Of a DNA stretch of 64,000 nucleotides, positions 14,355 through 37,810 are shown piece by piece. Source of the stretch: the human T2T-CHM13v2.0 reference genome, Homo sapiens; assembly GCF_009914755.1 (NCBI RefSeq), contig NC_060935.1. One strand, given 5' to 3'. The translations under genes were made by a program, and so were the position numbers. Position 1 is the first letter of the stretch, and each line of letters starts with the position of its first letter. Under the pieces are notes generated by a model that saw nothing but the letters and a program-made list of their open reading frames with translations, was not told the DNA's origin and searched no databases.

Positions 14355-14545
14355 AAAATGCCTCTCAAATTTAATATGCAGGTGAACTACTTGGAAATCT
14401 CATTGAAATGCAGTTTGTGATTGATACTGTAAGTCTAGAGTGAAACCTGTTATTTTGCGTCTAACAAGCTCCCAGGTTGCCTATGGCACAGGTGAAGTGT
14501 TGCAGCTACTGCCAGCTGATGGGCCATGTTTTGAGAAGATGCTAA
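14355..14545. mobile_element. MER5-like hAT MITE just upstream of the OOSP4B promoter
   Basis: aaatgcag...tctaacaagctcccaggt...ttttgagaa similarity. Confidence 0.5.
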
Positions 14546-14575
14546 GGGGTTTCCCTGGGCTGCCCCAGCAGAGGG

Positions 14576-14613
14576 TAATTGCAGACAGCTGAATGTGGCC
14601 AAAGGTTTATAAG
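14576..14613 (+). promoter_or_regulatory. OOSP4B core promoter: TAATTG + CAGCTG E-box + TTTATAAG
   Basis: TAATTG 14576-14581, CAGCTG 14586-14591, TTTATAAG 14606-14613; more E-boxes at 14489 and 14513. Confidence 0.6.
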
Positions 14614-14679
14614 CACTCAAGGAACCCCCAGCTCCTTGCCATTTCTTGTTTTCTATGTTGTGTCTTGGAGTCTGGAGCA

Positions 14680-14701
14680 ATGAAGACCTCTGTGCTCTTA
14701 G
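14680..14701 (+). CDS. OOSP4B: OOSP4B coding exon 1, short donor (MKTSVLL+G); an alternative donor extends it to 14755
   Basis: gcaATGa at 14680; TTAG|gtaggt phase-1 donor; second phase-1 donor CCAG|gtatgc at 14755; TATA-like box about 70 nt upstream. Confidence 0.8.
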
Positions 14702-15559
14702 GTAGGTCCTTCCTCTTTTCTTTATTGTTTTGGAATTCTTCTGGATTCAACCCAGGTATGCATAAGAAATATCTTCAGAGGTGGTGATTTAAACTGATAA
14801 GATTACTTTCTAAAACACTGCTGTGTAAAAAGCTGAGATTTTTTTTTTTCCCCCTGATTATAAACCAACAGGTAGGGCTGCCTGTTTCTATTACTCAGTT
14901 AAGAAAAAATTACTCTTTCTGGTCACATAAACTGTGCTCAGTCTTCTTTCTCTATAAGCCAATTTGAAAGTTCTCCAGTTTTAGTTTATCTTATGCCATT
15001 ATCCCTCTTCTAATGTGAGACCCATGTTTCTAACATAACTGGGGCTCCTATAATTTGAAAGAACCAGGGAAAGGAAGGACTACCTTAGAGATCTCTGGGT
15101 TTCTGGGGAGGATTACAGGCTCTCTTGGCCTATCCATGGTGCTGGAGAGATAGAATGAAAATTATATAGAGAGTAAGCAGCTGAATTTGGATGAGTTCTA
15201 ATTGCTTCCTCTATATACTGAAGTTTGGGAAACAGTTGAGCCCCAGCATTGTACTTGTTAGCTGCATGAACTTGGGCAAGTTACTTTTGAAGTCTCTCTA
15301 ATTTTGGCTGCCAGGAAAAAATTACTAGGAATGTATAGTGTCTTAAAATAAGATGATGAGAGGCCCCGTGAAATGAAAACACTCAAATCTTAGTGCTGGA
15401 ATTACCGTGAGGTAATGAGAGAATAGTTGTTTGGTTCAGTGCGCCAGAGTGATGTCGGCTGCGTCTAATGTCAGTGTGAGAGGTTTGCCAAATAAAGCAG
15501 CCTATGGACTTTCTCCTGTTTCTGTAACCATGCACTGGTTCTCTTCCACCTTTACATTA

Positions 15560-18615: not shown

Positions 18616-18987
18616 ATAAACAAATTACTCACCAACTAGCATTATTAATAGAGAATAGAGAATTCTCTGTGAATAGAGAATAATTAACTGAAACCTGAGT
18701 CAGGCACTTACTGTTATTCTAATTCTCACTTTTTCACTCCTACCTCTCCTAAGACACAGATGTTCAGTGGACAAAGAAGACACTGTTTAGATTGCAGCAA
18801 TGACTGAGTTGACTACTGATGGCCTAGATCACTGTCTGATTGGTATTAGGGCCAGCCACGTTATGTACCGGACTTAAGATTCTTCAAGTAATTTAATGGT
18901 TTGAGCATTTAATTTCTTATCTGGAAAATGAAGACATTATCTGTCCTATCTCAGGTTTTCTTTGTTAGACTCAATAACAAGAACATA

Positions 18988-21076: not shown

Positions 21077-21427
<351 letters not shown>

Positions 21428-28088: not shown

Positions 28089-28121
28089 GAGCAACTATCC
28101 AAGAAGTCACTGTATCAATAA
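28089..28121 (+). CDS. OOSP4B: OOSP4B terminal coding exon (EQLSKKSLYQ*)
   Basis: cttttccccccta-tcctacag| acceptor; TAA stop; AATAAA at 28362. Confidence 0.8.
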   Translation, partial: EQLSKKSLYQ

Positions 28122-37746: not shown

Positions 37747-37810
37747 ATGGCGTTAGAAGTCTTGATGCTCCTCGCTGTCTTGATTTGGACCGGTGCTGAG
37801 AACCTCCATG
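37747..37810 (+). CDS. OOSP2: OOSP2 exon 1 CDS, signal peptide (MALEVLMLLAVLIWTGAENLH)
   Basis: ccATGG start; CATG|gtaaat phase-1 donor; TATA box at 37666. Confidence 0.93.

What the first reader, a model, noticed from the sequence alone, without database searches (positions are those of the whole stretch)
14680..14755. Two in-frame exon-1 donors in OOSP4B could toggle a signal peptide
Seen: donor A (TTAG|gtaggt, 14701) and donor B (CCAG|gtatgc, 14755) are 54 nt apart. Both are phase 1 and in frame with exon 2. Donor A gives [13 protein letters not shown] (160 aa, no convincing hydrophobic core; as I recall, the annotated form). Donor B gives MKTSVLLGRSFLFSLLFWNSSGFNP-AITAMC (178 aa). This form has an h-region and small residues, and matches paralog OOSP2 exon 1 (MALEVLMLLAVLIWTGAENLH; 64 nt vs 76 nt; Trp at a similar position). 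Inference: B is the ancestral secreted isoform, and A makes a non-secreted or poorly secreted variant, so secretion would be controlled by splicing.
Basis: partly seen in the sequence, partly recalled or inferred. Interest (0 to 1): 0.75.

Follow-up and report, generated by a model that had tools for sequence, protein, structure and literature searches.

The report
OOSP4B signal-peptide exon has two donors
The annotated human OOSP4B transcript splices from a donor inside the old signal-peptide exon, while seven retrocopied pseudogenes and the neighbouring paralogues show that the longer exon ending at the second donor was the original form.

Summary
ATG 14680, donor A (14701|GT) and donor B (14755|GT) are 54 nt apart. 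Both are phase 1 and open into exon 2, giving 160 or 178 aa.

Donor B is the ancestral end of exon 1:
- The exon-1 donors of paralogues OOSP4A and OOSP2 align with B, not A.
- The human genome holds 7 processed pseudogenes of this mRNA. All 5 that keep exon 1 read through site A, and 4 run to 14754/14755 and then join a downstream exon.
- The 18 extra codons form a conserved hydrophobic core plus cleavage region in mole, tree-shrew and macaque gene models.

Donor A looks secondary. Its T (14703) is C in 3 of 5 retrocopies, A in one and T in one, which implies an ancestral GGC-GGG (a CpG). A is now the better match to U1.

But that core abuts the first ZP-N cysteine, leaving no room for a cleavage region.

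Whether both donors are used today, and whether secretion is thereby regulated, could not be tested. There were no RNA-seq data, no SignalP and no other primate DNA.

The parts
14608..14613 (+). TATAAG box of the OOSP4B promoter
   Evidence: Read. It aligns with the TATAA of OOSP4A and OOSP2. It lies 30 nt upstream of the 5' ends of the retrocopies.
14638..14638 (+). Inferred transcription start. The RefSeq exon 1 starts at 14469.
   Evidence: Four of 5 exon-1-bearing retrocopies begin at 14637/14638 and one at 14641, directly after their target-site duplications.
14680..14701 (+). Short coding part of exon 1 (7 codons plus 1 nt), ending at donor A
   Evidence: this is the annotated form.
14702..14707 (+). 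Donor A intron side (GTAGGT). T14703 is the third base of the Gly8 codon and A14704 the first base of codon 9.
   Evidence: U1 duplex energy is -10.2 kcal/mol and consensus match 7/9. Position 14703 is C in 3, A in 1 and T in 1 of 5 retrocopies. OOSP4A and OOSP2 have no GT at the aligned place.
14702..14755 (+). 54-nt extension of 18 codons. It encodes the hydrophobic core and cleavage region of the ancestral signal peptide.
   Evidence: It is open and in frame. It is present in all 5 exon-1-bearing retrocopies. It is homologous to the rest of exon 1 of OOSP4A and OOSP2. It is conserved in the B-form models of Macaca nemestrina, Tupaia, Talpa and one unnamed record.
14756..14761 (+). Donor B intron side (GTATGC)
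   Evidence: U1 duplex energy is -7.2 kcal/mol and consensus match 7/9. It aligns with the exon-1 donors of OOSP4A and OOSP2. The retrocopy junction 14754/14755 to exon 2 is seen in the chr8a, chr2 and chr6 copies. In the chr12 copy the same exon end joins a cassette.
21168..21349 (+). Exon 2. It starts 5 codons before Cys1 of the ZP-N domain.
   Evidence: The Pfam ZP-N match starts exactly at that Cys.
18747..18842 (+). Intron-1 stretch that appears as a cassette exon in the chr12 retrocopy only
   Evidence: The donor is TTG|GTATTA. The present human sequence has no AG acceptor and carries an in-frame TAG.
14593..14595 (+). Upstream ATG, in frame and open to 14680. It is present only in transcripts that start at the annotated 14469.
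   Evidence: It is used as the start in the Pan paniscus model P0002. The 29 added residues carry a 12-residue hydrophobic core.
37747..37810 (+). OOSP2 exon-1 coding part, used as comparator. The whole signal peptide lies in exon 1, in phase 1.
   Evidence: SignalP 1-17 is given for OOSP2 in Table 1 of PMC1479692.

Best explanation
The 54 nt between the two donors are the 3' part of the original signal-peptide exon of OOSP4B.

Shown:
- Donor B (14755) is the family-typical end of exon 1.
- The ancestral primate germline mRNA ran from a TATA-directed start at about 14638 through site A to 14755, and then joined exon 2.
- The encoded N-terminus had a hydrophobic core, a conserved W-N-S-S-G cleavage region, and about 30 residues before the first ZP-N cysteine. 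This matches other OOSP/PLAC1 proteins.

Inferred:
- Donor A (14701) is a secondary 5' splice site inside that coding sequence.
- Its GT arose from an ancestral GGC-GGG (a CpG) by a synonymous C>T at 14703. A G>A change at 14704 (Gly9Arg) followed.
- A is now a better U1 match than B and is the only donor in the RefSeq model.

Consequence of splicing at A: 18 residues are removed, namely most of the core and all of the cleavage region. A new short hydrophobic stretch is fused directly onto Cys1 of the ZP-N domain.

My reading of form A is that it is still inserted into the ER but is cleaved poorly or in the wrong place, or stays anchored. I do not think it is simply cytosolic.

Whether human oocytes still use B, and in what ratio, is open.
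For: Paralogues: in a three-way DNA alignment the TATAA boxes align, the ATGs of 4A and 4B align, and the exon-1 donors of OOSP4A and OOSP2 fall in the columns of donor B. At site A, OOSP4A reads TTGGGAAAG and OOSP2 reads TTAGAAGTC, so neither has a GT. OOSP4A exon 1 codes 67 nt in phase 1 and starts M-K-I-S-C-V-L-G-K-L-L-M-L-F.

Retrocopies: own-genome searches with exon 1, exon 2 and exon 5 found 7 intronless copies, on chr6, chr12, chr8 (two), chr2, chr4 and chr21.
- Five of the 7 keep exon 1, and 5 of those 5 continue past 14701.
- Four run to 14754/14755. Three of these then join exon 2 and one joins a cassette and then exon 2. The fifth runs to 14739 and then has an internal gap.
- None of the 7 shows an A junction. 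The 2 truncated copies have no exon-1 remnant.
- A-rich tails follow the poly(A) site in 6 of the 7 copies (not chr8b). Target-site duplications are clear in 4 of the 5 copies that keep exon 1, which marks these as processed pseudogenes.
- At 14703 the 5 copies read C, C, C, A and T.

Timing: a protein tree places the retrocopies inside the anthropoid clade (support 100/99), after the strepsirrhines split. K2P distance to the parent is 0.117-0.218.

Orthologue models: the extension is open and similar in Macaca nemestrina, Tupaia, Talpa and one unnamed record. That is 4 of the 15 aligned models.

Gene models follow the pipeline rather than the DNA: within Macaca both forms are predicted, and the two models are 100% identical over the shared part.

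Donor strength: A is -10.2 and B is -7.2 kcal/mol. The 11 annotated donors in the window range from -5.3 to -11.9.

Domain limits: the Pfam ZP-N match starts at Cys31 in a B-form model and Cys13 in an A-form model. Family members have signal peptides of 17-23 residues and ZP-N starting at residues 25-30 (Table 1 of PMC1479692, passages read).

Against: Ten of the 16 named or unnamed orthologue models use the A-type junction: bonobo, crab-eating macaque, Aotus, siamang '-like', three strepsirrhines, colugo, squirrel and pika. If those introns are real GT introns, A is old rather than derived.

I could not see any non-human DNA, so the base at the 14703 equivalent in other species is unknown.

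One retrocopy (chr8a) has T at that place, beside a 1-nt deletion.

The four retrocopies that keep the start of exon 2 share a GTT codon where human and lemur models have Thr. Their source may therefore have been a lost duplicate or a side lineage rather than the direct ancestor of today's gene.

The youngest retrocopy is about 11% diverged. The retrocopies therefore say nothing about splicing in the last tens of millions of years.

The signal-peptide reasoning rests on my own simple hydropathy and -3/-1 rules, not on SignalP.

A lemur (Daubentonia) A-type model is named 'precursor'. This hints that some pipeline scores the A form as having a signal peptide.
Confidence: 0.7

Rival explanations
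1. One reading: both donors are used in present-day human oocytes or embryos in a regulated ratio. B gives a secreted ZP-N protein and A gives a non-secreted or poorly secreted one, so splicing controls secretion.
For: Both sites are good donors in the right phase. The extension is still open in human. The B-type N-terminus has the full three-part layout and A does not. A precedent exists in IL-15 long and short signal-peptide isoforms (passage of PMC10883678).
Against: There is no transcript evidence for B in human: RefSeq lists 1 of 1 transcript with A (gene table in the finding), and no human B-form protein representative was found (weak evidence). The A form has a hydrophobic core stronger than that of B, so 'non-secreted' is not implied. 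The retrocopy data fit replacement over time as well as they fit regulation.
Confidence: 0.15
2. Donor A is ancient and is the normal donor across Euarchontoglires. B is an old minor alternative, and the retrocopies come from a lost duplicate gene that happened to carry GC at site A.
For: Ten of 16 orthologue models are A-type, including pika, squirrel, colugo and lemurs. The retrocopies share a GTT codon not seen in any parent-lineage model.
Against: Paralogues OOSP4A and OOSP2 have no donor at the A position, and their donors align with B. Models in one genus (Macaca) give both forms from identical shared sequence, so the models reflect the pipeline. None of 5 retrocopies is A-type. One retrocopy carries a cassette that is 92% identical to the present intron 1, so the source had this gene's intron.
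Confidence: 0.15
3. B is still the main oocyte isoform in humans, and the RefSeq model (start 14469, donor A) reflects sparse or non-oocyte evidence.
For: The annotated 5' end lies 169 nt upstream of the TATA-directed start that 5 of 5 retrocopies indicate. With that annotated start, an upstream in-frame ATG (14593) and other upstream ATGs enter the 5' UTR. So at least one end of the model looks atypical. The family-typical protein layout needs B.
Against: A is the stronger U1 match. Curated NM_ records normally require intron support (my own knowledge, not checked here). Retrocopies only report on ancient splicing.
Confidence: 0.15

Closest known systems
OOSP2 and OOSP4A exon 1 (neighbouring paralogues in the chr11 OOSP cluster)
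   Same: All have a TATA box, a short 5' UTR and a first coding exon of 64-67 nt in phase 1 that holds the whole signal peptide. In all, exon 2 starts 4-5 codons before Cys1 of ZP-N. The B form of OOSP4B (76 nt, phase 1) fits this plan, and its donor aligns with theirs.
   Different: Only OOSP4B has a second, upstream GT in phase inside the signal-peptide coding sequence, and only there does the annotation use it.
IL-15 long and short signal-peptide isoforms
   Same: Alternative splicing changes the signal peptide while leaving the mature domain untouched. Trafficking and secretion differ between the isoforms. I read a passage of PMC10883678. Tagaya et al. 1997 was seen only in its reference list.
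   Different: For IL-15 both isoforms and their different fates were shown experimentally. My recollection is that IL-15 involves an alternative exon rather than two tandem donors 54 nt apart. For OOSP4B only one isoform is annotated and no secretion data exist.
Processed pseudogenes as fossils of past transcripts
   Same: Intronless, polyadenylated copies flanked by target-site duplications preserve the exon junctions and 5' end of a germline mRNA. The concept is from Shemesh et al. 2006, which I saw only as a title in the reference list of PMC5470649.
   Different: Here the fossils disagree with the current reference annotation at both the donor and the transcription start.
PLAC1-like ZP-N-only secreted proteins (PLAC1, Oosp1-3)
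   Same: They share four invariant Cys, a ZP-N-like beta domain and oocyte expression.
   Different: The annotated human OOSP4B has 12 residues before Cys1, whereas listed family members have 24-29. It also has a frameshifted C-terminus.

Membership tests
PLAC1/OOSP family (ZP-N-only secreted proteins) | Four conserved cysteines of ZP-N (disulfide connectivity 1-4, 2-3) | tested here: met
   Four Cys are invariant in 15 of 15 aligned orthologue models: C31, C62, C81 and C115 in P0004 numbering. The human protein has four Cys at the matching places. The connectivity itself was not tested; the family rule comes from PMC1479692.
PLAC1/OOSP family (ZP-N-only secreted proteins) | Match to the ZP-N profile or fold | tested here: inconclusive
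   Pfam PF23344 gives E = 0.0032 and 18.2 bits, below the 24.7-bit cut-off, in 2 of 4 queries. A PDB sequence-profile search gave 0 hits. The AlphaFold2 model is poor, with mean pLDDT 52. Even so, its top Foldseek hits are ZP3, ZP2, ZPD and uromodulin ZP-N, with best E = 7.6e-4.
PLAC1/OOSP family (ZP-N-only secreted proteins) | N-terminal signal peptide of about 17-23 residues, with ZP-N starting near residue 25-30 | tested here: inconclusive
   The B form has an 8-residue core at 11-18, an S-S-G site at residue 22 and Cys1 at 31. The A form has a core at 5-13 that runs into Cys1 at 13, with no -3/-1 site between core and Cys1. These are my own heuristics. SignalP was not available. Family values come from Table 1 of PMC1479692.
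PLAC1/OOSP family (ZP-N-only secreted proteins) | Shared exon plan within the chr11 cluster | tested here: met
   Exon phases are 1, 0, 2 for both OOSP4B and OOSP2. OOSP4A exon 1 is phase 1. Promoter, ATG and donor B align.
Splicing-controlled secretion (IL-15-type signal-peptide isoforms) | Both splice forms present in transcripts of the same species | not testable with these tools
   No RNA-seq or cDNA data were available. RefSeq lists only A. Retrocopies show only B, and only for ancestors.
Splicing-controlled secretion (IL-15-type signal-peptide isoforms) | The two N-termini differ in ER targeting or secretion | not testable with these tools
   Only hydropathy and -3/-1 heuristics were possible. 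Both forms have a hydrophobic core.
L1-type processed pseudogenes (the seven dispersed copies) | Exons contiguous without introns, an A-rich tail at the mRNA's poly(A) site, target-site duplications, and dispersed locations | tested here: met
   Exons are contiguous in all 7 copies. A-rich tails follow AATAAAGCTTGCC... in 6 of the 7 copies (not chr8b). Target-site duplications of 11-14 nt are seen in 4 of the 5 full-length copies. The copies lie at seven loci on six chromosomes.

The most novel reading that the evidence does not exclude
A single synonymous CpG transition (GGC>GGT at Gly8) created a stronger splice donor inside the signal-peptide exon of an oocyte ZP-N protein in the human lineage. 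Human oocytes now make two OOSP4B proteins from one promoter. The B form is a normally cleaved, secreted protein. The A form has a hydrophobic N-terminus fused to the first disulfide cysteine, so it stays membrane-anchored or ER-retained. The A:B ratio changes between oocyte growth and early embryo, which would make localisation splice-controlled.
Probability: 0.12. Interest if true: 0.65.

Novelty: new member of a known kind. Interest (0 to 1): 0.4.

Why it matters
OOSP4B is an oocyte-expressed ZP-N protein of unknown role. Whether it leaves the cell decides what it can do.

If the annotated isoform really is the main one, the human protein has lost the family's normal signal-peptide layout. 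It has also acquired a frameshifted C-terminus. Both points bear on whether the gene is still functional in humans.

If B is still used, the reference annotation lacks the secreted isoform and places the transcription start about 170 nt too far upstream.

The case also shows how retrocopies can be used to audit the splice junctions and start sites of genes expressed only in oocytes, where transcript data are scarce.

Tried and rejected
- **Dispersed repeat.** My first reading of the dispersed matches to 14638-14755 was a transposable-element-derived first exon. I rejected this when the same loci proved to carry exons 2-5 contiguously.
- **OOSP4A as retrocopy source.** Rejected: OOSP4A is only about 26% identical in exon 2 at the protein level, and DNA similarity is limited to 26 nt at the ATG.
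- **A-type retrocopies.** Searches with exon 2 and exon 5 and low-stringency BLAST of the two truncated copies found none.
- **Human B-form protein in the big protein set.** The 64-aa contiguous frame found only the window's own ORF and the bonobo model. This is weak evidence.
- **PDB sequence-profile search.** No hit.
- **Structure prediction.** Low confidence, so I used it only for the fold class.
- **Literature.** 'OOSP4B' occurs in 1 paper, on oocyte expression only. The search for 'OOSP4A', 'OOSP3' or 'oocyte secreted protein family' found 19 papers; in the 17 listed titles and abstracts none concerned isoforms of this gene. 'OOSP' with 'PhyloCSF' gave 1 irrelevant paper. I found nothing in print on the two donors or on the retrocopies.
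- **Donor scoring.** No MaxEnt or other trained model was available, so I used consensus matches and U1 duplex energy instead.

Full report
**Observation.**
- The ATG is at 14680.
- Donor A is TAG|GTAGGT, with exon end 14701.
- Donor B is CAG|GTATGC, with exon end 14755, 54 nt further on.
- Both leave phase 1 and both read openly into exon 2 at 21168, giving 160 and 178 residues.

The read-through from the ATG stays open for 35 codons. It contains 7 GT dinucleotides. Only two are in phase 1, and they are A and B. These are also the two best by consensus match (7/9 each) and by duplex energy with the 5' end of U1 (-10.2 and -7.2 kcal/mol). The 11 annotated donors of the window span -5.3 to -11.9.

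The + strand of the window has 50 sites with at least 7/9 match. About 0.02 would therefore be expected in the 27 phase-1 positions after A. The pair is not a chance pattern.

**Paralogues.**
I fetched OOSP4A from the window's own genome (L022). Its first coding exon is 67 nt, phase 1, and begins M-K-I-S-C-V-L-G-K-L-L-M-L-F. This is recognisably the same peptide as the B form of OOSP4B (M-K-T-S-V-L-L-G-R-S-F-L-F-S).

A three-way DNA alignment of the exon-1 regions of OOSP4B, OOSP4A and OOSP2 shows:
- The TATAA boxes align.
- The ATGs of 4A and 4B align.
- The Trp codon of 4B and OOSP2 aligns.
- The exon-1 donors of both paralogues fall in the columns of donor B.
- At the place of donor A the paralogues have no GT.

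In OOSP2 and OOSP4A the whole signal peptide lies in exon 1, and exon 2 starts 4-5 codons before the first domain cysteine. OOSP4B has that plan only if B is used.

**Retrocopies.**
A search of the window's own genome with 14560-14860 unexpectedly hit five other chromosomes over 14638-14755 only. BLAST of those loci against the whole window showed that they also carry exons 2, 3, 4 and 5 directly abutted. They are processed pseudogenes of this mRNA.

Searches with exon 2 and exon 5 added two 5'-truncated copies, making 7 in all. A-rich tails follow the mRNA's poly(A) site in 6 of the 7 copies (not chr8b). Target-site duplications of 11-14 nt flank 4 of the 5 full-length copies.

All 5 copies that keep exon 1 read through donor A:
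- chr8a and chr2 show a clean junction from 14755/14754 to the first bases of exon 2.
- chr6 shows the same junction followed by a small duplication.
- chr12 joins 14755 to a 97-nt piece of intron 1 (window 18747-18842) and then to exon 2.
- chr4 runs to 14739 and then has an internal gap to exon 4.

No copy has an A-type junction, and the two truncated copies have no exon-1 remnant. So the germline mRNA that was retrocopied used donor B.

**Age of donor A.**
At the donor A site the parent reads TTAG|GTAGGT. The copies read GGCAAG, GGCGGG, GGCAGG and GGAGGG, and GGTGGG next to a 1-nt deletion.

The simplest source sequence is GGC-GGG, which is Gly-Gly as in the macaque, tree-shrew and mole B-form models. 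It contains a CpG that decayed differently in each copy. On that reading the T at 14703 that makes donor A a GT site is derived and synonymous. The A at 14704 (Gly9Arg) is also derived.

A protein tree of orthologue models and frame-projected retrocopies places the copies inside the anthropoid clade (support 100/99), after the strepsirrhines. K2P distances to the parent are 0.117-0.218. The copies therefore report on splicing tens of millions of years ago, not on splicing today.

**Orthologue models.**
The protein database returned 16 models with usable N-termini.
- Four are B-type: Macaca nemestrina, Tupaia, Talpa and one unnamed record. All share an 18-residue block with a hydrophobic core and a conserved W-N-[SA]-S-[GE] stretch.
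- Ten are A-type: bonobo, Macaca fascicularis, Aotus, a siamang '-like' model, three strepsirrhines, colugo, squirrel and pika.
- Two have other first exons.

The siamang model groups with the chr8a retrocopy (support 96/93) and has lost a domain cysteine. It is probably a model built on a pseudogene.

The A-type majority is the main evidence against a young donor A. However, the two Macaca models are 100% identical over their shared part and still differ in form. The choice therefore reflects the prediction pipeline, probably guided by the human protein, and not the DNA. I could not see any non-human DNA.

**Effect on the protein.**
The Pfam ZP-N profile matches weakly, below its cut-off. The match starts exactly at the first cysteine: residue 31 in a B-form model and residue 13 in an A-form model. 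Four cysteines are invariant in 15 of 15 models.

A low-confidence AlphaFold2 model (pLDDT 52) is all-beta from residue 27 to 118. Its best Foldseek hits are ZP-N domains of ZP3, ZP2, ZPD and uromodulin.

Table 1 of Jovine et al. 2006 (PMC1479692, passages read) lists signal peptides of 17-23 residues and ZP-N starts at residues 25-30 for PLAC1, Oosp1, Oosp3 and OOSP2.

By my own simple measures:
- The human B form has a core F-L-F-S-L-L-F-W (8-residue hydropathy mean 2.27), 12 residues between core and Cys1, and a small-residue site after Gly22. That site is conserved in 4 of the 5 B-type sequences; the mole model lacks it.
- The A form has a core V-L-L-A-I-T-A-M (mean 2.64) that runs straight into Cys1, with no room for a cleavage region.

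The real defect of A is that any cleavage would have to occur at or inside the first disulfide cysteine. I infer ER insertion with poor or aberrant cleavage. This is inference only, because SignalP and experiments were not available.

**What remains open.**
Nothing here measures present-day donor use. Three readings remain possible:
- A is the stronger U1 match and the only annotated donor, which favours A being the main form now.
- The RefSeq model also starts 169 nt upstream of the start that five retrocopies and the TATA box indicate, so its evidence may be thin.
- The regulated-toggle idea remains possible but has no support beyond the presence of two good donors.

**Unexplained.**
The four retrocopies that keep the start of exon 2 share a GTT codon (Val). 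Human, Aotus, macaque and lemur models have Thr at that position. This suggests the source was a side lineage or a lost duplicate of OOSP4B. That source still had the same start site, the same exons and this gene's intron 1, since the cassette in the chr12 copy is 92% identical to 18747-18839.

**Literature.**
- 'OOSP4B' occurs in one paper of the library, which reports oocyte expression by Smart-seq2 and nothing on isoforms.
- The search for OOSP4A, OOSP3 or the family name found 19 papers; in the 17 listed titles and abstracts none concerned isoforms of this gene.
- For the precedent of signal-peptide isoforms I read one passage on IL-15 (PMC10883678).
- For retrocopies as transcript fossils I saw only the title of Shemesh et al. 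2006 in a reference list.

**Verdict.**
'B is ancestral' is well supported. 'A is derived' is probable but rests on retrocopies alone. 'Splicing toggles secretion' is untested. The finding is a useful annotation and evolution note on one oocyte gene, not a new kind of mechanism.

Noticed in passing
window 14469-14680; TATA 14608-14613; start at about 14638: The RefSeq exon 1 starts at 14469. Four of 5 full-length retrocopies begin at 14637/14638 and one at 14641. This is 30 nt downstream of a TATAAG that aligns with the TATA boxes of OOSP4A and OOSP2. The true oocyte 5' UTR is probably about 42 nt.
   Followed up: yes
G000 chr6:76921114, chr12:95861562, chr8:25552318(-), chr2:5161608, chr4:125116249(-), chr8:47543364, chr21:18388302(-) (L002-L006, L012/L019, L020/L021): There are seven processed pseudogenes of an oocyte-specific gene, with K2P distance 0.12-0.22 to the parent. 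This is an unusually rich retrocopy record for a small gene and fits high germline expression.
   Followed up: yes
window 14593-14679: An upstream ATG at 14593 is in frame and open to the annotated start. It would add 29 residues with a 12-residue hydrophobic core and an S-G-A site, which resembles a signal peptide. It spans the TATA box, so it exists only in transcripts from the annotated upstream start. The bonobo model P0002 uses it.
   Followed up: partly
window 28098-28109 (exon 5): The human gene has a 1-nt insertion relative to 5 of 5 retrocopies that cover the site. The shift replaces the ancestral C-terminus (S-T-S-H-C-I-N-N-A-C-V-I-T-S-S-P-P, as in the Aotus, tree-shrew and mole models) with S-K-K-S-L-Y-Q-stop. 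Bonobo and macaque models share the shifted end.
   Followed up: partly
window 18747-18842: A 96-nt stretch of intron 1 appears as a cassette between exon 1 (B end) and exon 2 in the chr12 retrocopy, where it is 97 nt. In the present human sequence it has a GT donor but no AG acceptor, and it carries an in-frame TAG.
   Followed up: partly
window 14655-14657: There is an out-of-frame upstream ATG inside the short 5' UTR. All 5 retrocopies lack an ATG there (four read GTG, the chr2 copy TCTG), so the ATG is derived in the parent lineage. Its short ORF overlaps the main start.
   Followed up: no
P0012 (siamang 'OOSP4B-like'), P0003, P0008, P0015 and similar unnamed records: Some database 'proteins' are translations of the retrocopies. 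P0012 groups with the chr8a copy and P0003 with the chr12 copy. Others are chimeras of retrocopy and parent intron (P0008). They should not be read as evidence of expressed isoforms.
   Followed up: partly
window 21176-21181 compared with L002-L005: Four of the four retrocopies that keep the start of exon 2 share GTT-TCA where the parent has ACT-GCA. Lemur models share Thr with the parent. The source of the retrocopies may therefore have been a lost duplicate or side lineage of OOSP4B.
   Followed up: partly
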